Translations under genes and position numbers: made by a program
From: Hypanus sabinus
Taxonomy: Eukaryota
Length of the DNA: 64,000 bases
Direction: 5' to 3'
NCBI RefSeq assembly: GCF_030144855.1
Contig: NC_082715.1
Coordinates: forward strand, 117,614,001 to 117,678,000
Notes under the pieces: generated by a model
Databases searched by the model: none
Told to the model about the DNA's origin: nothing
What the model saw: only the letters and a program-made list of their open reading frames with translations
In this document: positions 32,043-55,290 of the stretch, piece after piece
Layout: the number at the start of each line of letters is the position of its first letter
Position numbering within the stretch: the stretch's first letter is position 1

Positions 32043-32200
32043 AAAAATAAAAACAGAAAATGCTGGCAGAACTCAGCAGGCCAGACAGCATCTATGGGAG
32101 GAGGTAGACTACCATAGATGCTGTCTGGCCTGCTGAGTTCTGCCAGCATTTTGTGTTTTCATTTATTTCCAGCATTTGCAGATTTACTCGTGTTGCTTTT
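32043..32200. mobile_element. Palindromic Penelope terminal-repeat mini-element with ~13-bp TSD, next to the XDH exon 32 acceptor
   Basis: TSD GAATAGCCAGCAT / GAATAGCCCGCAT (32030-32042 / 32201-32213); hairpin arms. Confidence 0.82.
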
Positions 32201-36519: not shown

Positions 36520-39500
36520 CAGCTCAGTAATCTACCTGAATCTTGTTGGTCTTCTGGAATCAATGGAATCAAAAAAAAGTATCCATTTCACCTCATGTGG
36601 CTGAATTGAAGAGAATGTCCAAGCATTATCAGTTCAGTGAAAGGCTTACTGATGCACTGAGAGATTGTTTGGTTTGTAGATTCTTACAAGAAAGCATTCA
36701 AAAATAGCTCGTAACTGAAGCACAGCTCACATTTAAAAGAGCCGTTGAAATTGCTGTCTCAATGGAAACTGCAGACAGAAACACAACTGAGATGGAGTCA
36801 GGAATGAAAGTGAATGTGAAAAATATTGCCACAGCTAAACAGAAACCATCTTGGCCAAACAAATTGCGTTACTGTTGTGGCAGGGGCTCACATACACTAG
36901 ACCAATACAGGCTGAAAGATGAAACTTGCAGAAAATGCAAAGTAGGACACATAGAAAGGGTTACTTAGACAGATAAAAACAAATGGACTGCATGGGGAAA
37001 AACAACAGTTAGAAGTCAAGTTGCAGTTCAAAACAGAGCAATGATCTGCATGCTGCTGATGAAAAATCTGATAATGATGAGAGTAACACAGGATTGGGTA
37101 GCTTACAGCAGATGTGAAAGGCAAGTTAATTAAAATGGCTCGACTGTTTCAGTTATTCCACAAAATGAGTTGAAGTGGCATTTCAAATAAACTGAACACA
37201 AGTCTGCAGATACCAAACTAAGAACTTATGATAAAACTCCTGGGGGAATGACATTTTTACATTGAAATACAACAACCGACAAGCTACATTGGGTTTATAG
37301 GTGAAAAACCAGGAGGACCAGCATTGTGGGGTTGTGATTGGCTGAGACAACTACAACTTGATTGGAGATCCATCCCACATCCCCAGGAACCCAAGCATAT
37401 CAAGGGTAAAATAATGTGAAATGAAAATGCCACACCCACATTTTACAAAGCCCATTTGGTTCGTTATATCATCTGCGATAAAGTCGCAAGTGAGCTTGAT
37501 TCCATGGAGGCTGAAGAAATTCTTTCCAACACTGATTGGAGCCCATGGGCAAAGCCAGTTGTCCCAGTAACCACAAAGAATGGGTCTGTGGTGATGTTAA
37601 GGTCACCGGCAATCCAGTACTGAAGGCAGATCACTATCTTCTGCCCAGGTTAAAGGATATCTTTGCAAACCTTTCTGGAGAGAAACACTTCAGCAAAGTG
37701 GACTTAGCTGAGGCTACCTACAGATGGAGATACAAGAAGAGTCCAAAGTGTTCCCTGCCATAAATACTCACAAAGGGCTTTATTGCAATAATAGGCTAAT
37801 TTGTGGAGTAGCATCTGCATCTACACTCTGGCAGAAAGCTTTGGACCAGGTGCTGAAAGGCTGCCCAGGCACTAAATGTTACCTGGATGACTTCATTGTT
37901 ACCAGTGAGGAGGACAAGAAACATCTTGAAACTCTTAAGACTGTGTTAAAAATATTAGAAGATTATGGGCTCAGAGCACATTGTAACAGATGTGAATCCT
38001 TTAAACCAAGTATCAGTTACTGTGGTCACAACTTTGATGCTCAAGTATTACACAAGTGTGCTATGAAAATTCAAGCAGGGTGGATGCTCTAAGACCAAAG
38101 GACATATCACAGTTGCAATCTTTTTCAGAATTTGTCAATTACTATAACAGGTTCCTGCCAAACCTGGCTACTGTTCTTCACCCCTTGAACTCATTACTAC
38201 AGATTGGGAAGAATTGGCAATGGACAGAGATTTGTGAGGTGGCTTTCAAAAAGGTAATGGAAATGATGATGTCAGACCCTGTACTCACATAATATGATCT
38301 ACATTGCTCAGCATAGCTTGTCTATGATGCCTGGCCTTATGGTACAGGTGCAGTCATGCCCCAAGTTATGAGTGATGGAAGTCAATGCCCCCTAGCATTT
38401 GCAACACATTCCCTTTTTGTGACAGAGAAAAATTACAAATGGATTGACAGAGGGCTTTCAATCTGGTTTGGATTGTAAAACATTTTAACCAGTACTTCTA
38501 TGGGAGAGAGTTAACCCTCATTACTGATCATCAACTACTAGTGTTCATTTTCAATCCACAGAAGTGTGTTCCAACAAGAGCAGCAGCACAAATGCAGAGA
38601 CAGGCTCTGTGTCTTGGAGGATAAAATCAATCTCAAGAGGACATCTGATCATGGAAATGCTGATTGATTGTCCCATTTACCCTTGGAAATGGAAATGCCT
38701 GAAAAATTTATAAAAGAGGATACATATAAATTTATAAAAGAGGACGCATACATACAAGGGGCTTGGACCTGGTGGGAAAGTGTTGAACAACGACATCTAT
38801 CTTGGAATGTTCTGTGGCAGATGGAACTGCTCTGCATTTCTTTTCTATACAGGGCAGTGAATGACCTGCTCCCAACACCTGCCAACCTCAGCACCTGGTA
38901 TGAAGATAAGACAGAGAGGTGTGCTGCTTGTAGTGAGAAGGGAACACTTCAACATATTTTGAGTGCATGCAGAGTCAACCTTTCCAGCGGCATGTACACT
39001 TGGAGACATAACAACGTTCTCAAACTTGTAACAGAAGCGGTCGAGCAGAGAGTACAGCAGCACAACTTATCTCATGCCCCACGCAGCAGAGAACATTGCA
39101 TATCATTTGTGAAAGTAGGCTCCAAGCCAAGGGTGCACAGCGCAGGCCCACGATCAAGCATACTTTCTTCAGCCAATGATTTGTGTGTCAAGGCTGACCT
39201 GGATGGGAAAGGCAGTTTCCTGGAGCAAATAGTTTTCACCACATTGCGTCCAGATATAATCGTCTGGTCTGACATCAGGAGAGAAGCGGTTATTGGTGAA
39301 CTCACAGTTCCCTGGAAAGACAACATCGATGAAGCCCATGAGCGCAAGCTAACCAAGTATGCAGAGTTAAGATCAGAGTGCAGAGACAGAGAGTGGAAGG
39401 TTTCATGCTATCTATTCGAAATAGGTTGCTGTGGCTTTATTGCGTTCACTTTCCAGAAGTGGCTGCGTGACCTTGGCTTCACTAGAAGAGAGATCAAGTC

Positions 39501-42696: not shown

Positions 42697-43455
42697 TGTC
42701 GTGGATATTCTCTTTCAGACCCCAAAGGGCTCCGTCCTAACATTGGGTTTTTTTTTGGCCCAGAAGCAGAACTGTCCAAGGTTCACGAAGTTTGTTGTTC
42801 ACTAAGATAAATTCATTTTTAGCCCAGCAGCAGAAAATGTCCACGGGTCAAGTGTTTGTTGTTCATTAAGCCCAGCAGAAGAAATTGCCCAAGATTCAAG
42901 ATGTTTGTTGTTTAATAAGTTAAATTTCTAACTGGGATACTTTGCTCATATTCTTCACTTCTAACCAGTTGGCTTTGGCTTAATCAAGAGAAACAATGGG
43001 TCCATGCTGAACTTGTTGAACTATGACCCAATCAAGAGAAACAAGGGTATCTCCATTAGACTAATTAAATACACCATCTTCCTAACCTGATAACCTGCTG
43101 AGAAACATCACATGCCAATGATGACAATTGATAGAAAAACAGTATAAATATTAGAAGGCAGTCACAGTTGGGAGAATCGATAGAGTGAAGAAACAGGATT
43201 CATTCCTCTGCCTTGGTTTCGGCAACGGATGACTTGTTCATCTTCAACTCTTTGGTACGTCTTTCTAGATTTTAAGAAATCTACCTGCATTTGGAAATCC
43301 TTTAAGTTATACATCTGTCTGGAATTATACCTCAGAAATTAATATGTTTCACTTAAAAATAAACTGTGTTTAATCTGCACCATTAGCTGGAAGTATCGTC
43401 TCCTTGGTGGCGAGGGGAGGGTGCAATAGTGATTACTAACAGCTGACCCCTTTCA
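42697..43455 (+). mobile_element. Putative solo LTR in XDH intron 5
   Basis: TG...CA termini, three ~45-bp tandem U3-like repeats (42758-42920), TATAAAT near 43143, AATAAA near 43358. No clean TSD seen. Confidence 0.6.
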
Positions 43456-43783
43456 GGAAGAGATTAAATAAGTGAAAGTAAATGAGTCTGGTTGAAGTAA
43501 ACTAGTGTAGATTAATACAGTGTAATCTCACTAAAATGCAGGTTTTTGTAGATATTTAAACCAGATGTGGCTTAGTTTTGATTAAGCTTATCACACACAA
43601 AATCATCACAACAGCTGCAGGGAGATGGTGCAAACTCCAGAGAGAGAGAGTTGGGCAGGAATAATCCTGCACATGTGGAGCTATGAGGCAACAGAACTAA
43701 CTGTTGCACCAACAGGCCCCCCCTTTGAAACTGGTCTCTCTGCTTAAAAGTCTGGAACTGAGCCACAAACTTAGAGAATTTAC

Positions 43784-43910
43784 CTTGGAGGGTGTCTTCA
43801 ATTTCCTCCATTGTGGGATCCAGGTTGCTCTGAAATAAACAGTATACAGACATGACAATTCTAGCGATGCAGAATCCTCACTGGGAACTGTGGGCCTTTG
43901 CAATATGCTC
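43784..43910 (-). pseudogene. XDH: XDH exon 5 remnant (2Fe-2S domain) with in-frame stop
   Basis: 127 nt, AG/GT intact. EHIAKAHSSQ*GFCIARIVMSVYCLFQSNLDPTMEEIEDTLQG vs XDH [43 protein letters not shown]. TGA at 43878-43880 replaces an Fe-S ligand Cys. Confidence 0.93.
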
Positions 43911-44119
43911 CTGAGATTGAAACAAAAGCTGAGATTTAGTGTGGGAAGTTTGATCAGACGTGGAACAATAACTGGACTGTCACATAAAGCATGGATGAGG
44001 AGATTTGAAAGCTTTGGATTCTGTAGTAAGAAGAATCACTAATTCCATAATGGTTAAAGGGAATTATGATGCAGCTAGAGTTTTACTGAGAGGTCTGGGT
44101 TCCAGCAATCCCATCACTG

Positions 44120-44790: not shown

Positions 44791-45237
44791 CATACCCCCT
44801 CCTGATTTCCCCTCACTAGAAACAATTGCTCTTTATTTACCCTATGATCACCAACAACAAAATGTGTTAAACAATAAATAAAAGAATATTTTATTTTGAA
44901 ATATTTAGAGTGCAGAGGGTGGGTGGCCATTCAGCCCAACGTCTCTATGGTGAGGAAGTTCAAAACACAATCTTGTTGTCCATGAAGGAATTAAGCTGTG
45001 GGAGAAATCTGGAAGCTAACTGGAAGGAGTTAAGGACAGACAAAGTAAACAAACCAGATGGCTTCATTCAACCAATCGGTTGAAGGAATGGAGGTCACTA
45101 TTTTGTGAAACTGCCCTGCAAGCTCTGTCTTGTGAGCTGGTTTTGCTCAGGAATGGCTGTATGTCGGTGCTTTAAAGCAGATAGAATGAGGCTCCTGATA
45201 ATCTGTTGAACTAGAAATCATTCCCAAATAATTGTAA

Positions 45238-45293
45238 GATTATTATTATTATTTTTATTTTTATTATTATTAATTATTATTTTATTATTATTG

Positions 45294-45325
<32 letters not shown>
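45238..45325. repeat. Imperfect (TTA)n microsatellite
   Basis: Direct reading. Confidence 0.95.
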
Positions 45326-45329
<4 letters not shown>

Positions 45330-45679
45330 TGTAAGATGTTCTCTGGGAAGTTAAAACGTGCAGGTTTATAGATAGGGCAGCCTTCTCTGACCTGAGGAAC
45401 TTGAGCCTAGCAACCGGCTGATTTATAACAGTGACATTAATTTCACTTTGTCACTGGTGATGAGGGCAATAAGAGTTTGGCTTGGAAAGCTAACACATGT
45501 TAGCCAATAGGGCAGAATCTCCCATTCACTTCTTGTTTGGCCAATTGGCCTCTATTGCAGTGCTATCACTTTGAGAAGTTATTTGCATTGATATTTGTGT
45601 TGGGAAAAGGTGAAATCTTTAACTTGATTAAGAATTGTGTACTGAATTGCCTACCTTGGATCAGTAGATAGCATTATAC

Positions 45680-47700
45680 AGTCATGGAAAAGTACAGCAC
45701 CAAAACAGGCCATTCAGCCCATCTAGTCATGCTGAAATCACTTCAACTGTACTCCCATCGATCTGTTCTGGGACCATAGACCTCCATATCCCTACTATCT
45801 ATATACTTATCCAAACGTCACGTAAATATTGAAATCAAGCTCACATGCACCACTTGTGCTGGCAGTTAAGTTCACACTCTCACGACCCTCTGAGTGAAGA
45901 AGTTTCTCTTCATGTTCCCCCTAATCTTTTCACTTTTCACCCTTAACCCATGACCGCTGGTTGTAGTCCCACCCAAACTCCGTGGAAAAAGGCTTCTTAC
46001 ATTTACCCTATATATGCCCCTCATAATTTTGTATACATCTGTCGAATCTCCTCTCAATCTTCTACTTTCTAAGGAATGAAGCCCTCACTTATTCAATGTT
46101 TCCTTATAACTTAGGTCCTCCAGAGCCAGAAATATCCTTGTAAATTTTCTTTGAACCTTTTCAACCTTATTTACATCTTTCCTGTAGGTCGGTGACCAAA
46201 ACTGCATACAGTACTCCAGATTAAGCCTCACCAATATCTTGTCCAACTTCAACATAACATCCCATCTCCTGTACTCAATGCACTGATTTTGAAGGCTGAT
46301 GTGCCGAAATCTTTCTGTATGACCCTATCTACCTGTGACACCACTTTCAATGAATTGTGGACCTGTATTCCCAAATTCCTTTGTTCTACTACACTCCACA
46401 GTGCCCTACCATCCACTGTGTAAGACCTACCCTGGGTTCGTCCTACCAAAGTGCGACTCCTCACACTTGTCTGCATGAAATTCCATCAGCTGTTTCTCAG
46501 CCCAATTTTCCAGCTGATGTAGAACCCTCTGCAAGACATGTTAGCAGTCCTTGCTGTCCACTACACCCTCAATCTTGGTTTCATCTACAAATTTTCTGAT
46601 CCAGTTAACCACATAATCATCCAGATCGCTGATATAGATACAAACACCAATGGACCCAGCATCAATCCCTGCGGCACACCACTGGTCACAGGCCTCCAGT
46701 CAGAGAGGTAACCAACTACTCCTATGCTCTGGTAGTCCCACTAAACCAATGTCTAATCCAATTTACGACCCCACTGGCCAGCCTCCCATGCGGGACCTTG
46801 TCAAATACCTTTCTGAAGTTCATGTTGACAACAACCGCTGCTTTGCCTTCATCTTTGCTGGTAACTTCCTTGTAAAACTCTTTAAGAATTGGTTAAACAT
46901 GGCCTAACATGAACAAAGCCATGCTGACTATCCCTAATCAGTCCATGTCTATCCAAATATTCATATATCCGGTCCCTTAGAATACCTTCCAATAACTCTC
47001 CCACTACTGATGTCAGATTCACCGCCTATAACCTCCTGGTTTATGTTTAGGGCTTTTCTTAAACAGCAGAACAACATCGGCTTGTCACCTGCCCTGTCTC
47101 ATTTCCTAACGGCAGAGCAAGTATTGCATACTCTCTCACTGGGACATCGATGTACTGATTAAGGAAATTTTCTTGAATACATTTGGCAAACTCTATCCCA
47201 TCCAGTACTTTTATAGTTTGGGAGTCCCAGTCAAGATGTGGAAAGTTAAAGTCACCTGCTGTAACACCTTTCTGTTTCTTGCAATTATCTGTGATCTCTA
47301 CAAATTTGTTCCACTAAATCGCTTGGTCTATTGGGTGGTCTGCAACATAGCCCCATCATAAAGCCTCACTAGACGAGTTTTCCAGTCTGTCCTGATGGAA
47401 CACTGCTGTGACATTTTCCCTGAGTAGTAACGTCACTCCTCCTACTCTAATCCTACTGTTCTGTTGTGTCTGAAACAGAAGCCTGGAATGTTGAGCTGCC
47501 AGTGCTGCCCCTCCTGCAGCCACATCTCATGAATGGCTACAATATCATAATTCCACATGTTGATCCATGCCCTGAGCTCATCCACCTTTCCTACCATACT
47601 TTTGCATTGAAATATACGCAACTCAAGATTCTAGTCGCACCATGCTCAACCGTTTGATTCCTGACTTTGTCTGAGTTCTTACCAACATTTGGTTCCACAA
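45680..47700 (-). mobile_element. Internally deleted CR1
   Basis: YKIMRGI...GHGLRVK...FFTQRVV 3' end, plus RT and endonuclease fragments. Confidence 0.85.
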
Positions 47701-47719
47701 GCTCTCCACCAATGATTCC

Positions 47720-50700
47720 TGGTGTTATGTCAATAAATTTGGTGTTCCTTGGTCAACTCAAAGAAAAACAGAGGTCTGGGCCCTATGTTTCGAGTCAACC
47801 TACATACTAGGTTAGGATATTAAAATGAGAAAAGAAAAATATGGACAAGAAGAACCCAGGGTGTTTGGGGGATTGGAGAAATTACATTTATAGTTCAATA
47901 TAAAGAAAATTGCCCAACTATGAGGTGTCGCTAGGAAAGGTTGAGAATGGAAGGTCAGCATCACTTGAGATGCATGGTGGAAAGAAATTAAGGAAATGAA
48001 ATCAAAGAGATTACGAGTGATTGACTTGCCAACTGCTCCAGACCATATCCTGGGAAGAGATGTTATTAGGAAAGTAGGTTTTTGAATGTTGATCTGATTA
48101 TTTATATGTCTTGGCAGTTTAATATTGTGGGTTGTAAATACACTAACCATTTTAATAGAGCATACTCTAATTCAGCTTTTGCTGGATGGCCATATCAAGG
48201 ATGGGACAATCAGTCAAACTCGACTGGTCTGATCAACATTGCTATTACAAGGTTGTAATATTCCACTTAAGATGTTCCCTTGAAATCAGGAAAGGAAAAT
48301 AAGGTTGTGTCACTGGCCCGTTTCTTTTTAAAGATCTTTGTTGATGGAATGTCATCAATTCTAGATGGGGAGAGCCTTACAGGATGTGATTTATATGTAG
48401 CAGACAAGGAAGGAGTCGAGAATAGAAGTGCTGCAATCAAGTTATCTAAAAGAATGTGTGTGCAAGTGGCACAACATGTTGCTATAAGTTTTGTTGTTAT
48501 CAATCCTTCAGGAGCGAGTATACAGTCAGAAAGCATGCATGGTTGTAATAGCTTGACTGAATGTTTACCTTTATAGGAAGCTGGAAGTTCTATTTTAGCA
48601 AATGGTAAACTTTTACCACTGGCACCCTTGTTAAAGTATAATATTTAACAATGCAAGAGGAAACATGGTGAAGGCTCACTCAAAAACATCTCCGGAAGAG
48701 AACCAGAAGGTGGACGAGTTAGCCAAACTAGGAATGGGATGCGGGGTGAAATACAATCCAGATACAGGGAGAGTGATGGCACAGTAAAGAGCATATCTAT
48801 AGAGTTAGTCAAGGTACAGCAACGGGATCAGGAGTTAGCACAGGTGCAAAGAGGAGAGAATTTTGAAGAATATGGTAAATATACAGGAATGGAATGGGAT
48901 TGTAATAATAGTAAGTTTGTGGTGCCAGAAGGTGTACGGATATTTTTAGGCATCAAGGACCAGATAGAGCTATGGTACAGCAGAAGCATCTGTGTTGATG
49001 GCCAAAAAAGCAATGAGGTGTAAGAACTGTTTGACTTTGTTCCCCAGTATAACCCAGATAACTCAGTTTAAAAAAAAGTTTTTAGACCCAATGTAGAGCC
49101 ATGGGTTAGCTTGCAGATTGATTTTGTGGAGCCTTTACCTCCATCTAGTGGAGGAATGAAAAATATCCTATCGATAGTGTCAACTTTCACCAAGTTGTTG
49201 GAGGATTTCCCAACTGGAAACAGCACTGCTGAAGATACAGTCAGCATTTTGTTTGAGAGTTTTTACCCACTGGATATTGCCAGGATTCGAGAGTCACATC
49301 CCCACTTTGCCACAAAGGGGATGTAAAATCTGATGAAACTGTCTGGAGTCAATCAGAGGTTCCACATCCCTTCATCGAACCCAACCCCAGTGGGATCGTT
49401 GAACAGATGAACAGACCAATTTTAGCCAAGATTCAGGAAGGTCACTGTCTTACGCTGAGTTCTTATGATGATCCATACCATTGAAGCTCCTTCTACTGGA
49501 TTTACCAGGAGAGAAATGAGAGGATGAGAATTTCTGATCGGACTAGATTTATCAAACCTAAGTGTGATGGTCTTGTAAAGGACAGATGTGTATGTCAATT
49601 AATTGACACCGTTAAGGAGCCCCATTATGTCACAGTGGGTAACATGGGACAGAAGAAGCAGCAGAGCAAGTCTTATTTTGGTGTGTGAACAAAGACCTAG
49701 GGAGCTGAAATTAGGATAGGAGATAATAATCTCAATTTATCAACCAGGTCCTCAACCATCTCTGAGATATCATTGGCAGAGCCAGCTGATTAATCTATCG
49801 AATCCAGACTGCTCCTAACGAGTTAGGTTGGTATCATATTAACCAACATGAACCCCTTAGAAAATCTATGTCCTGTAGAAGTTGACATCCATAAGGCACA
49901 TTATCAATGAGATGCTCTGGAGATGAAGATGCTCTCTGATTTACTTTTCTGGCAATTGACATTGATCTGAATGAAAGAGCTATTGCCTATTCAGTGAGCT
50001 GGGCACCCACTTCCAGTTTGCACCAGAATTTTAAAGATAGTTCCCTTTAAACTCAACATCAGGAAGGGAAGGTTAAGGCAAGCAAACATTGCAAAGAGCC
50101 ACGGGAAGAGGGAAACAAATGGGAGACTGCACTCATCACCAGATCTTCTGGAAATAAAGCAGGAGATGGAAGAATTACTAGATAAATACAGAAACTGCTC
50201 TTGATGTTACTCTTCCAGGTATTCGGAAATGATTGTAGTTGGAATACTACTGCTGAGTGGCTTCGAATTGGACAAAAGCTCTGCTGAAGGTTATATGTAA
50301 TACAATATAGTGTATTATTGGCCAATTATATATTCATCTGGACAGATGCAAAGTATGAAGATTAGGTTGGCAGCAGAGGAAGTATTCACAACATTCACTG
50401 AGAAGTCTATTTGGATTCCTTCCGATACCATGGTAATAATAGACTGTGTGGATGAGGAAGGTGAAATAGTGGTACGAATATATGAAGAACGGAGACAAAC
50501 ATTTGCAAAAGAAATGAGATCAAGGTCTGTTGATAATTGGGGTCAAGTTACAGTGATATGGGTTAAAGATGGCAATTCTAAGTTAACAGTGGGAAGTCAT
50601 GTTTTTTTGGGTCCTGCTTCAGGCAAAAAAGGCTTTATAACTCGAGTACAACTTCATTGTGAATGTGATGGTACTGTTGGTATGGACAGCAATCAAAGAA

Positions 50701-52730
50701 AAGATCATCGATTAGCATGTGCTCCAGGCAACTCAATCCCAGTTGCTCTGGAGCCCCAAGATTTTCCATATAAACCTTACCCTTCGGTAGAGTCAACGAC
50801 CATTGACACCACAATCATTGCAGTGACAACTGTTACTAGTCCTTTGTTGTGTGATGAGATTCAGACAGACACAAAGGGAGTAGGTCTTGTATTAGAAGAA
50901 ACAGAAGAGCGAATTATTCTAGTGCCAGGGTATAGACACGTGCAAGTATTGTTCAACTTAACGTCGCTTCAGATTCCTAGTTGGTGTGGAATAAATCTCC
51001 AGGAACTTTTCCAACATTTATTAATTGAACAGTTTACCCACTCAGAATTGAAAACAGGAGAGAGGCGAAGACGGGGGCTTATTGAATTTATGGGATTGGG
51101 ATACACTGCTGGAGTTTCCACAGTAAATACACTGGATATTGCGGAGCTAAGCTCTCAGGTAAATTCTCTAAGGAAAAAGATGAAAGAAATAGTAAATCGG
51201 GATTTTCAGGATATGGGAGGGGTGAGCACATTAGGTAAGCAACAAGCAAATGTAGTTTCGGAAATGCTCCATATTTTACAGCCATTAGGAGATATGACAA
51301 ACTGAATTATTGACAGAGTTAACACTGAAACTACTCAACACACTAAGGATGCTGTTTGCTCAACTTATACCTCGTGGTTACTTTCTGTAATTGGGCTTAA
51401 TATGGTACAATTAGAGAACCATAGGGTTCCCGATTGGATTTCAGATGAACAGTTAAAAGAATGGGTTGGTACTAACACACCAGCGTGTCACATTAGAGAA
51501 TTCACTTTTACAAATCATCTCCTTGGAAATTGTAGGAATGGATCTGGACCACTCTATGTTGGAGCAGTTCTTCACATTCCTTACCATAGTGATAACCAAA
51601 CATACACACTGTACAAGGTTCATAATGTTGGGAAGTATCAAGACAGAGTTTCGATTTCACTTACCAATCCACTTACCAATTACTTATTCTATTAAGTGGC
51701 AAGGATCTACAAAGGGTGTAAATTTGGCTTCCTGTCATCAAAAGGGGGAATATTGCATCTGTCCAGAGGATTTGCTTAAGAATGGGTTAACAGATTGTGG
51801 GTTTGTTTCTTATGATAATTGTTCTCTATCTATTTTACCTCTCAATAACAGGACATTCATAAAGTTTGCTTTGGTGAATGATACTTACTACTTTGCTACT
51901 TCAAGCACACATTACAAGAAGGGATCTTTAACATGCAGTTTGTATAACCATAACGTAGCACTTTCCAATGTTTTGAGGGACTTATTTTTAGCTGGACAAG
52001 TGTTACCCAAACCTGTTGTAAAGCCACCTATTCACCTGGATATATATATCAATGATACTGCTGAGGGCTTACTTAGATATGTACCTACAGCTCTTCCACC
52101 CATCCCTCATTTTACTGCACAGTGGGATCGAGTAATTAACCATAATGAAGCCATTATTAAACAGTGGGATGAATTGTCCAAGACTATTAAAGATTATGCA
52201 GATTTAGCTAATGATATTTTGCAGGATCCACCGTTTTGGAGTAAGGTTTGGAACTGGGGTCGGAACGTTAATGTACATCCTTGGATACGTATTATTTCAC
52301 ATGTTGTTATAGTTCTGCTTCTCGTTCTAATGATCATCCAGTGTATTTTCCTAATTGTTTCCCGCAGGCAGCTTAAACAACTCAAGGGTTTGCGTGCTAA
52401 ATCTCATTCCAATTCTCTTTGCAGCAATGTTGTCTGACTTTACACCATGGTGTTGTCTTACTTTGAGTACTATGTACCTATACATCATTATATATGCTAA
52501 CATACAGTATGAAATCAGATAAGTTTCATCATGTTTCTTTTATAAGCTTTTGTACTGATATTATTTTAAATATGCCAGTATTTTGATAGACTCCACAAAA
52601 TGTAATATGATATTTTGTTAGTATCTTTATTGGCATTATTTGTTGTCATCATGAATGCTAGTGTTCCTTTTGTCCTGTACTCACTCAGATATATAAACTA
52701 AAATTGGGGAGATGTTTTGTCATGTAAGAA
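47720..52730 (+). mobile_element. Degenerate endogenous retrovirus (protease end, tether, RNase H, integrase, env); RT deleted; lokiretrovirus/foamy-like env
   Basis: Protease-like ILGRD near 48050. Tether-like HTLIQLLLDG...RLV*STLLLQ at about 48160-48250. RNase H IFVDG...ANGK at 48280-48620. Integrase LQIDFVEPLP from 49111. env at 50310-52437. PPT-like GGGGAGA then TGT near 52706-52715. Confidence 0.85.
50310..52437 (+). pseudogene. env: Retroviral envelope (class I fusion glycoprotein), about 700 codons with one in-frame stop and one frameshift
   Basis: Furin site RRRR (51063-51074), fusion peptide GLIEFMGLGYTAGVSTV, heptad repeat, Cys-rich region, several N-X-S/T sites, Trp-rich PPFWSKVWNWG, TM helix IISHVVIVLLLVLMIIQCIFLIV. 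TGA at 51303-51305 reads through in frame into ORF 51402-51695; frameshift near 51690. Confidence 0.88.
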
Positions 52731-53049
52731 TGTAAGAATGTCATGTAAGAATTCCCCTGTGGGAATGACATTCACAGCATTGAAATACAACAACCAACGA
52801 GCCTGAGACTTTTTCTGATTAATGTTCAGCCTGATGTTGAGAAGCTGATGTCACTGCAACAAGCCCATCCATCCCATTGAGAGGCGAATAAGCAATGAAG
52901 TACTGAATAGTTGGACTACTAATGTATGCTGTAAAATTGTTAATGAAAATTGATTTTACTGTGATTAAAGAAACAATTGTATTTGTAGCTTTAGATTGGA
53001 TTAATTTTTGAATTTGCATTTCTTATTTTCTTCCACGGTGCACTGTAAC

Positions 53050-54900
53050 TCAAAAGTCTTTATAGGGTTTTTGTAATGGCTGGAAAACAAGAGGGGGTCA
53101 TTGGGAATGTGGTCTGGTGGGAAAGCGGGCAGCAACTCAGAAAAACTGGGAACCACTACTCAAAACCTTGCTTATTCGTGCACCTGTTAAAGAGTTCCAA
53201 TACGCAAAAAGGAAGTTGTCCACCTTGTGCTGTAGAGAAATGTTCTCCTTTTCCATCACTTTAATGGACTTCTTGACGGTTTGGATGTCCCTTTCAGCTA
53301 ACCCATTCATTGCTGGTTTGAAATGTCTGATGCTGTTTTTCTTCATGAATAACCTGAATTCTTCTGATGTGTATTGTGGTCTGTTGTCACTCACAATTTG
53401 TTCAGGTAAGCCAATTCTGCTGAAGATTGTCCTCAGGGTAGAAGTAGTCTTTCCTGATGTGGGTGACTTCATTGGTATAATCTTTGGCCACTTTGAATGA
53501 GAATCCACAGCAATCAGAAACATGGAGTCCATGAATGGCACAGCAAAGTTAATACTGTATGTACTCGTTGCCTCGGTGACAACAGCCACTCTCATCGGTA
53601 TAATGGTACCTGTGGGGCTGCAATTTGAACATTTTGGGCATCCTGAACAGCTTTTGGTCTAGCCTTCACTCTTCCTATCTATTCGCAACCACCACAAGTA
53701 ACTCCGGCTGAGACTTCATATTGGCTATACCCAGGTGTCCTTCATGCAGATTCTCTAACACCTTCTCAGGAACATTAGCCAGCTGGGACAGTCTCTGTTT
53801 AGTCCTACCATTTGGGCTGCCATTGCCGGCCGATGACTCATCGAGAGCTTTGATTGTGTGGCAGTCTGGTTAGATTTTTCTCAACCATTCATGTCCAAAA
53901 TGCTGGCTCTCCACTTTTCAACACAAAGCTCTAACTGTTGTGTTTGGCTTCCATACATCACATTCACTTTCAGTTGGCCTTTGGGAGACACTTTTTCACC
54001 TGTGTAGGTCTTTAGCATCACTGTTTTCTCTGGTAGTATCTTAGAAAACAGTCTGTTGTAGTCAGCCTCTGGAATTAGAGACGAGGCTGACTCTGTATCC
54101 AGCTCCATTTGCAGTTTTACACCAGACACATCTATTGTGATCCAAATGATTGTGTGATCTGCTTCAGCTATACTATGCAGTTCTCAGCATGGCAGTTCAC
54201 CTTTGTCAGACTCTGTGTTGTCTGATTCTGTTTCACATTTGGTAACTTAATGTATTTGCTTAGTTTTGTGTTTGAAACTTTTTACTCAGTTATGCTTGTC
54301 TGCCTTTCACATGCTAGAGGGTCTTATCTGTGACACTTTGTATAAACTCTTTCTTTGATCCAACAGTCACTTGCATCATGGGAGGATCTGCCACATCAAT
54401 AAAATATTTGTTTTTTTGCACCGTTCAGGGACATCTTGTCCATTTCACATTCTAACATCTTTTTCTCTAATTCTGCTGTTTCCTTTGCTGCAGTCTCTAC
54501 CAATATTGCAATGGTCAATGCCCATTCTCTTTCTGACAGTAGCCTCATTTGAGTGCTTTGACTATGCAGACCACACACCAGCCTGTCCTTTATTGAATCA
54601 GGAAGCCCATCTGCAAAGTCACAGTATTGAGAAAGCTTGCACAGTTCTGCAATGATTTCAGAAATGCTTACCCCCTTTGTCTGGTTCCTTCTGTAAAATC
54701 TAAACCTCACAGCTTGTACCAGCAGTTTAGGGCTCAAGTGATTTTTTAGAATTGTAACAATTTTGTCGAACATCTTGCTTGCTGGCTTTTCAGGAGTTAC
54801 TATGTTGCACAAGAGACTGTACATTTTAATATCCATTAAGCTGGGAAGAGTGGCGGCTTTCTTTTGCTCATCCATGTCAATCGCCTTACACAACAGTTCA
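53050..54900 (-). mobile_element. Internally deleted Gypsy element (gag, protease, integrase; RT missing)
   Basis: gag ORF 54396-54959 (DRLVCG), protease MELDTES near 54100, integrase VDSHSKWP...IVSDN...NGLAER at 53137-53595. Confidence 0.85.
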
Positions 54901-54904
54901 ACCC

Positions 54905-55290
54905 TTTTGATAATTTTGTGGCCTAAGGTAGAAGGAGTCAATTTTAGAAAAGGGCACATTTACTTTTCAACGTAGTCCCCTTCTACATTTGCACACTTAG
55001 TCCAGCAGTCGTGGAGCATACGGATCTTGGACCTCCAGAAAGTGTCCACAGCAGGGGTGATTGATAAGTTTGTGTCCTAAGGTAGGCGGAGATGAGTAAT
55101 ACAGCTCTCGTTACATGCACGTGCAGTTCAACTCTTTGAGTGATTATCCAGAAAGTTTGAACTTAATAACTTAACTCCTTCTACCTTAGGTCACGAACTT
55201 ATCAATCACCCCGATGAGTTATTAACATCGGACTTTCTGCAATCACTCAAAGAGCTGAGCTGCATGTGCATGTAACGAGAGCTGTATATC
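54905..55290. mobile_element. Tc1/mariner-like MITE cluster with nested inverted repeats
   Basis: TIR-like GGGGTGATTGATAAGTTTGTGGCCTAAGGTAGAAGGAG direct at about 54908 and 55053, inverted at about 55176-55212. Confidence 0.7.

What the first reader, a model, noticed from the sequence alone, without database searches (positions are those of the whole stretch)
50310..52437. env is far better preserved than the adjacent pol: possible captured envelope gene
Seen: about 2.1 kb of env has only one in-frame TGA (51303-51305, a plausible CGA>TGA CpG change) and one frameshift (about 51690), plus possibly one at the signal peptide. The pol of the same provirus has no ORF above about 100 aa, RT is deleted and the LTRs are essentially gone. 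Inference: env may have stayed under purifying selection after insertion (syncytin-like or restriction role) and been lost recently, or the lesions may be assembly errors. Many rays are viviparous, so this is worth testing.
Basis: inference. Interest (0 to 1): 0.75.

Follow-up and report, generated by a model that had tools for sequence, protein, structure and literature searches.

The report
Broken copy of captured stingray envelope
This is a broken copy of a retroviral envelope gene that stingrays seem to have kept and still transcribe elsewhere, possibly the first captured viral fusion gene in cartilaginous fishes, though its job is untested.

Summary
Intact 745-aa relatives exist in two named stingrays (94% to the window, 96% to each other), and 20 listed runs from 12 organisms hold part of the stretch. 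A small exon 7 kb upstream splices into env: an RNA-like contig from another ray starts exactly at the acceptor and has no frame-breaking gap of its own. That ray shares nearly all pol lesions, so pol decayed while env stayed open. The window copy itself looks like a decayed duplicate. It shows 28 private amino-acid changes against 11 and 14, and 3 breaks against 2.9 expected neutrally. It groups with a second copy that is broken independently, as with primate envV1/envV2. The protein is an F-type (loki/foamy-like) fusion protein without the CKS17 motif, so CKS17-based screens miss it. Against: window-versus-relative divergence is no lower in env than in pol, dN/dS and host-gene synteny were not measured, and tissue and function are unknown. 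Antiviral receptor blocking is slightly likelier than a uterine fusion role.

The parts
43143..43148 (+). TATA-like box in front of exon 1
   Evidence: sequence; function inferred
43190..43254 (+). Upstream exon 1; in-frame ATG at 43229; GT donor at 43255
   Evidence: encodes the first residues of both intact 745-aa models (best score 37 vs next 27); its letters are joined to about 52689 in run X1; 64 unaligned letters precede the env acceptor in run X6; the 5' end is inferred
44974..45675 (+). Probable 5' LTR remnant (edges approximate; interrupted by an ATT microsatellite at 45239-45328)
   Evidence: a 20-letter motif that follows the polypurine tract in run X1 matches 45001-45020 with 2 mismatches, 0.01 expected by chance
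45676..47719 (-). LINE-type repeat inserted into the provirus; its junction is shared with organisms A and D
   Evidence: about 69% matches to other repeats in the window; very high depth in DNA runs; contigs 1 and 17 cross the junction; the LINE label is from recall
47720..49950 (+). Decayed protease end, RNase H and integrase; RT absent
   Evidence: (best but weak hit: foamy virus integrase, E 0.16)
50219..52437 (+). Env exon, F-type envelope; ATG at 50229; broken in this copy
   Evidence: 94% and 93% identity to P0003 over residues 10-493 and 493-745; acceptor context; contig 30 of X6 begins at 50218
50298..50300 (+). Break 1: in-frame stop after the signal peptide, private to the window
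   Evidence: all four laid runs differ from the window here (table 3)
51063..51074 (+). Furin-type cleavage site followed by fusion peptide and heptad helix
   Evidence: R-X-R-R at residues 291-294 in both intact proteins; position mapped
51303..51305 (+). Break 2: in-frame stop
   Evidence: both intact relatives are open here; state in the laid runs not shown
51673..51681 (+). Break 3: frame change, private to the window, beside an 11-nt local direct repeat
   Evidence: (table 4: X1, X4 and X6 differ from the window)
52279..52359 (+). Transmembrane anchor
   Evidence: hydrophobic segment, residues 689-727; helix in the model
52668..52731 (+). Second splice acceptor (before 52689), polypurine tract and first bases of the 3' LTR; the rest is replaced by a high-copy repeat in this copy
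   Evidence: (tables 2, 7, 8)

Best explanation
An old endogenous retrovirus with an F-type envelope entered the germ line of a stingray ancestor. Its gag/pol decayed (RT lost, LINE inserted, many stops and frameshifts) while env stayed open and came to be made from a spliced mRNA: a small upstream exon is joined to the viral env acceptor. The predicted product is a signal-peptide-bearing, furin-cleaved, membrane-anchored trimeric glycoprotein. The locus was later duplicated. One copy lineage remains intact (P0003, P0004, the organism-D transcript). The other (this window and the main organism-A copy) lost constraint and broke independently. SHOWN: lesion contrast, intact relatives, exon structure, shared pol decay, excess change on the window branch. 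INFERRED: selection for a host benefit, duplication, and the function. Given capture, I put receptor interference against related F-type retroviruses at about 45%, host cell-cell fusion (reproductive or other) at about 35%, and other roles at about 20%.
For: (1) Intact 745-aa P0003 (Hypanus sabinus) and P0004 (Hemitrygon akajei); all 16 cysteines of P0004 are also in P0003, and the furin site and TM are kept. (2) Four contigs of DNA run X4 cover 1,889 nt of pol that hold at least 14 lesions in the window, with only 0, 9, 1 and 1 gap letters and 2.9% substitutions, so most lesions are shared. The same organism's RNA-like env contigs have no gap except at the window's own frameshift. With 8-14 shared lesions, the chance of none in env is 8e-5 to 7e-8. 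(3) X6 contig 30 starts at 50218 with 64 extra letters in front; depth is 25-33 over env and 0-4.9 over pol; X1 joins exon-1 letters to a second acceptor. (4) Private amino-acid changes over 727 sites: window 28, P0003 11, P0004 14 (p 0.009 and 0.044); 3 breaks observed vs 2.9 expected neutrally. (5) Only 3 of 29 differences between the intact pair fall in the fusion core, residues 295-500 (p 0.037), against 9 of 28 on the window branch. (6) Organism K: env contigs 4.9% vs pol contigs 8.4% from the window (p 0.0009). (7) The window's own ORF and P0003 are listed with the same longest-contig length, and the window shares letters with X1's main contigs against D and K at 5 listed sites, so two copy lineages are likely.
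Against: Window-to-D divergence is not lower in env (2.4% DNA contigs, 3.0% RNA contigs) than in pol (2.9%; p 0.42 and 0.93), so amino-acid constraint looks mild. Only 40 of 795 difference rows were shown, so dN/dS was not computed and stop codons in the X6 contigs are not excluded. One listed site (52134) conflicts with the window+A grouping. The core contrast between branches is borderline (Fisher p 0.056). Orthology of K's contigs and of P0003 with P0004 is not shown by host genes. In X1 the abundant transcript runs through pol and its env is frameshifted. Whether X6 is RNA is the tool's guess, and tissue is unknown. Protein databases show only intact copies, which biases the sample.
Confidence: 0.65

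Rival explanations
1. No host function: env stayed open because the element or a helper family was still spreading (reinfection, complementation, or gene conversion from intact copies). Intact and broken copies are a neutral scatter.
For: Equal env and pol divergence from organism D; broken copies in the window and organism A; many family fragments at 85-90% identity and high-depth deleted forms; X4 contigs of this locus have depth 65-101 against 10-15 for some other family contigs (a hint only).
Against: The LINE junction and pol lesions are shared across organisms, which dates the copy as long-resident; neutral survival of env over that time is 1e-4 or less. No young intact family was found: 1 cluster, best other relative 46% identity.
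Confidence: 0.15
2. Single-copy captured gene that was lost in the window's own species, with no duplication.
For: Exon 1, the acceptor and the env are all present in the window; lineage-specific loss of captured envs is common (PMC8922424, passages).
Against: Same longest-contig length for the window's ORF and the intact P0003; the window groups with organism A's separately broken copy.
Confidence: 0.12
3. The window copy is functional and the three breaks are assembly errors (or it is a falsely duplicated haplotype).
For: No laid run carries the window's own copy (best share 0.51), so the breaks could not be checked on reads.
Against: 28 private missense changes; 3 breaks match the neutral expectation of 2.9; the frameshift sits at a local direct repeat, not a homopolymer; 6% protein difference and letters shared with another organism are too much for two alleles.
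Confidence: 0.04
4. What is selected is the transcription unit or a truncated or non-coding product, not full-length Env.
For: Exon 1 is also spliced past env to an acceptor near 52689 in X1; X1's abundant transcript has a broken env; a 319-aa product is on record for the window.
Against: Two species keep the full 745-aa frame with all cysteines; the 319-aa frame lacks the signal peptide.
Confidence: 0.04

Closest known systems
Primate envV1/envV2 (ERV-V; PMC3610889, abstract and passages)
   Same: Post-integration duplication; one copy full length, the other broken independently in several lineages; over 94% identity
   Different: EnvV is a placenta-expressed primate gene with tested fusion; here F-type, in rays, tissue and activity untested, duplication inferred
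Co-opted foamy env of geckos, ERV-Spuma-Ppi/Gja (PMC6669660, abstract and section 3.2)
   Same: Captured env outside the classical syncytin type; open frame across species; transcript evidence
   Different: 943 aa, at least 96 My old, dN/dS 0.14, synteny shown, no pol left; here 745 aa, younger, pol remnants present, weaker constraint
Lokiretrovirus Env (PMC7947760, section 5 and passages)
   Same: Signal peptide, R-X-K/R-R site, fusion peptide, coiled coil, TM; likeness to paramyxo/pneumovirus F
   Different: Cartilaginous fishes are not among the listed hosts; no co-option terms in its main text; defined by RT phylogeny, untestable here
Teleost captured envs: percomORF, Seb-env (PMC12813294, passages, methods section, supplement rows)
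   Same: Captured env in fishes, some viviparous
   Different: That screen required a CKS17-like motif, which this protein lacks; none of its 26 H. sabinus ORFs exceeds 1,980 bp
Fv4-type restriction envs and syncytins (recalled, not looked up for Fv4)
   Same: Env kept after proviral decay and expressed from a spliced mRNA
   Different: Neither receptor interference nor fusion has been tested here

Membership tests
Co-opted retroviral env gene (the intact copies) | Env of retroviral origin within proviral remains | tested here: met
   protease, RNase H and integrase remnants upstream, polypurine tract downstream
Co-opted retroviral env gene (the intact copies) | Open frame kept across species while the rest of the provirus decays | tested here: met
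   P0003, P0004; shared pol lesions with organism D. Not met by the window copy itself
Co-opted retroviral env gene (the intact copies) | dN/dS below 1 | tested here: inconclusive
   indirect only: branch asymmetry and K contrast for, D contrast against
Co-opted retroviral env gene (the intact copies) | Same insertion site across species | tested here: inconclusive
   LINE junction shared with A and D, and 52975-53130 covered in A; no host gene found in the window ORFs scanned; flanks of P0003 and P0004 not available
Co-opted retroviral env gene (the intact copies) | Spliced env transcript | tested here: met
   contig starting at the acceptor in X6, exon-1 junction in X1; two annotated models share exon 1; contigs only, RNA status guessed
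Syncytin | Expression at the maternal-fetal interface | not testable with these tools
   run libraries not on record
Syncytin | Cell-cell fusion activity | not testable with these tools
   furin site, fusion peptide and TM present, no assay
Gamma-type env (classical syncytins) | CKS17-like immunosuppressive motif | tested here: not met
   no match in P0003 or P0004
F-type class I fusion proteins | Likeness to paramyxo/pneumo/baculovirus F or foamy Env core | tested here: met
   Atlas features 0.92 to Fusion_gly; TM 0.53 to Baculo_F on residues 225-700; weak Foldseek top hits hMPV F and foamy Env, E about 1e-3, on a poor model; no Pfam sequence hit
Lokiretrovirus | RT groups with lokiretroviruses | not testable with these tools
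   RT is deleted in this copy
Lokiretrovirus | Env layout sp, RXKR, fp, cc, tm with F likeness | tested here: met
Foamy virus (Spumaretrovirinae) | Integrase closest to foamy virus | tested here: inconclusive
   best PDB hit PFV integrase but E 0.16
Foamy virus (Spumaretrovirinae) | Foamy_virus_ENV family match; accessory genes after env (feature recalled) | tested here: not met
   no PF03408 hit; only about 260 nt between the env stop and the polypurine tract

The most novel reading that the evidence does not exclude
Stingrays captured an F-type (loki-like) retroviral fusion protein, put it under an upstream non-proviral exon and promoter, duplicated it, and use it for cell fusion or immune protection in the uterus or embryo. 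It would be a syncytin-like gene of a fusogen class and vertebrate group where none is described in the papers searched.
Probability: 0.17. Interest if true: 0.88.

Novelty: new member of a known kind. Interest (0 to 1): 0.62.

Why it matters
Captured envelope genes are known from mammals, lizards and bony fishes. My searches found none described for sharks or rays, although live birth is widespread there. This locus gives a named, annotated, intact candidate in two stingrays, with a decayed pol next door and a decayed duplicate as built-in neutral controls. It makes the question of whether viviparous elasmobranchs co-opted viral fusogens directly testable. It also shows that screens keyed on the CKS17 motif miss F-type envelopes.

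Tried and rejected
No whole genome is held for the window, so copy number and synteny could not be checked. No listed holder is on record as RNA; this is not counted as evidence. Pfam gave no family-level hit for env, and PDB sequence searches gave nothing significant. Both AlphaFold models were poor (mean pLDDT 29 and 39), so fold hits are leads only. A search for full-length pol relatives found none among 3,033 candidates, so lesions were counted without a reference. The profile search returned only P0003. No relative was found in viral contigs. No tRNA or Rfam hit in the window. The 43440-44100 block gave no gag hit. A GT..AG joint 49340-50716 in X1 comes from a minor, fragmentary contig and was not used. 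Uncovered pol bins in X6 are a weak hint only. An Ig-like N-terminal domain, suggested by earlier notes on other elements, found no support. Absolute age was not obtained. Literature searches with no description of this gene: locus id, 0 papers; 0 papers. The 2020 survey of 177 co-option events is not held and its tables may bear on novelty. The 98 H. akajei rows of the PMC12813294 supplement were not read beyond the first.
Full report
Observation. The env region is read in two frames with an internal stop. Against an intact relative it aligns at 94% over residues 10-493 and 93% over 493-745. It has three breaks: a stop at 50298-50300, a stop at 51303-51305 and a frame change near 51673-51681. 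A reference-free minimum count gives 3 lesions in 2,216 nt of env against at least 18 in 2,231 nt of protease-to-integrase (p 0.0015). RT is missing.

What the element is. The upstream remnants are protease (weak Pfam RVP hit), RNase H (read by eye) and an integrase whose best PDB match is foamy virus integrase, weakly (E 0.16). The envelope has a signal peptide, an R-X-R-R site at 291-294, a fusion peptide, long helices and a TM anchor, and no CKS17 motif. Language-model features and predicted structure place residues 225-700 with F-type fusion proteins (0.92 to Fusion_gly; TM 0.53 to Baculo_F). Foldseek on my low-confidence model ranks hMPV F and foamy Env first, none below E 0.001. This is the layout described for lokiretrovirus Env (PMC7947760, section 5); foamy Env shares the fold (PMC11468914, abstract). 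Distant fragments occur in four shark genera. Without RT the lineage cannot be assigned.

Intact relatives. The only cluster found holds 745-aa proteins from Hypanus sabinus (P0003) and Hemitrygon akajei (P0004), 96% identical, plus the window's own 319-aa ORF. Both begin with nine residues not encoded next to env. These map to 43229-43254, followed by a GT donor, in phase with an AG acceptor before 50219. Of 24 listed runs, 20 from 12 coded organisms hold part of the stretch (shares 0.05-0.51); I laid 4 of them.

Transcripts. In X6 (RNA by the tool's guess, organism D) one contig aligns from 50218 with 64 unaligned letters in front, as expected if exon 1 is spliced on; the letters themselves were not shown. 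Depth is 25-33 over env and 0-4.9 over pol. The env contigs have no gap except at the window's own frameshift. In X1 (organism A) a loose end matches exon 1 at 24 of 25 letters (read by eye) and is joined to a second acceptor near 52689, so the donor is used in vivo. X1's main contig, however, runs through pol and carries its own net frameshift at 51455-51491.

Order of events. Four contigs of DNA run X4 (organism D) cover 1,889 nt of pol that contain at least 14 lesions in the window; they show 0, 9, 1 and 1 gap letters and 2.9% substitutions, and one crosses the LINE-provirus junction. Most pol lesions and the LINE insertion therefore predate the split between the window copy and D's. Env collected none in that time, since P0003 and P0004 are intact and D's frame is open; the neutral chance is 8e-5 to 7e-8. 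This is the strongest argument for capture. In organism K, env contigs differ from the window by 4.9% and pol contigs by 8.4% (p 0.0009). I left out two K env contigs at 12-14% as other family members, and orthology of the remaining contigs is assumed.

The window copy. Over 727 sites the window has 28 private amino-acid changes, P0003 11 and P0004 14, with 3 sites all different. Three breaks match the 2.9 expected for neutral decay since the split from D (the indel rate is a rough figure). The intact pair has 3 of 29 differences in the fusion core, the window branch 9 of 28. The window's ORF and P0003 are listed with the same longest-contig length, which suggests two copies on one chromosome. 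Among the 40 of 795 difference rows shown, five group the window with organism A's contigs against D and K, and one conflicts. I read this as a duplicate lineage that broke twice independently. The parallel is primate envV1/envV2, a post-integration duplication with one copy repeatedly broken (PMC3610889, passages).

Evidence against. Window-to-D divergence is the same in env (2.4-3.0%) and pol (2.9%). The intact pair differs at 29 residues; 45 would be expected if their neutral distance equalled 2.9% (p 0.007), but that distance is not measured. Constraint is therefore probably moderate. dN/dS, host-gene synteny, tissue and activity were not obtained. Stop codons in the X6 contigs cannot be excluded from the truncated table.

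Promoter. The sequence that follows the polypurine tract in X1 matches 45001-45020 in the window, which marks a probable 5' LTR at about 44974-45675. Exon 1 lies 1.7 kb further upstream and shows no likeness to it. Env may thus be driven from outside its own provirus (about 65%; inference). The TATA, donor and AATAAA pattern around exon 1 could be an older LTR.

Mechanism. Shown: a spliced, potentially full-length membrane glycoprotein gene in some rays, dead in this copy. Inferred: the protein folds as a cleaved F-type trimer at the cell surface. Core conservation fits both receptor interference and fusion. From recall, stingray embryos are fed by maternal uterine secretions rather than through a syncytial placenta, and birth-and-death with duplication fits antiviral genes, so I rank restriction (about 45%) slightly above fusion (about 35%).

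Novelty. Ten library searches found no description of this gene or of a captured env in elasmobranchs (the relevant ones). A 2026 survey of 40 chondrichthyan genomes required CKS17 (PMC12813294, passages and methods), and its 26 H. sabinus ORFs reach at most 1,980 bp. Co-opted foamy envs are known from geckos (PMC6669660, abstract and section 3.2). Frequent gain and loss of captured genes is reviewed in PMC8922424 (passages); the underlying survey was not available. Also seen: bioRxiv 10.1101/2023.10.26.564294 (passages), PMC10699275 (part 1 of 4), PMC13023373 (passages). Verdict: a new member of a known kind, in a new host group; interest 0.62.

Noticed in passing
window 53066-54400 (minus strand): A separate, better preserved LTR-retrotransposon pol fragment (integrase core, Pfam rve E 1e-9), high-copy in DNA runs, lies right behind the provirus in opposite orientation.
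   Followed up: partly
window 52732-52915: A high-copy short repeat (second copy at 37239-37284) sits where the 3' LTR should continue; contigs of A, D and K leave the window sequence at 52731.
   Followed up: partly
run X4 contigs 17-23: Depth 65-101 against 10-15 for several other family contigs; may mean several near-identical copies in organism D, but the tool warns that depth is not copy number.
   Followed up: no
window 43400-44100: Purine-rich block after exon 1 and an AATAAA at 43358; may be the leader or gag remnant of an older LTR element; no Pfam support.
   Followed up: partly
window 42758-42926: Degenerate 48-nt tandem repeat upstream of exon 1, of the kind seen in LTR enhancers.
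   Followed up: no
   Followed up: no
run X19 joints 50766-50851 and 51278-51411: High-depth internally deleted env forms in organism K, suggesting amplified non-autonomous derivatives.
   Followed up: no
window 32045-32164 and 55054-55287: Near-perfect inverted repeats (56-nt arms with an 8-nt spacer; 47- and 54-nt nested arms), probably head-to-head short repeats or a MITE.
   Followed up: no
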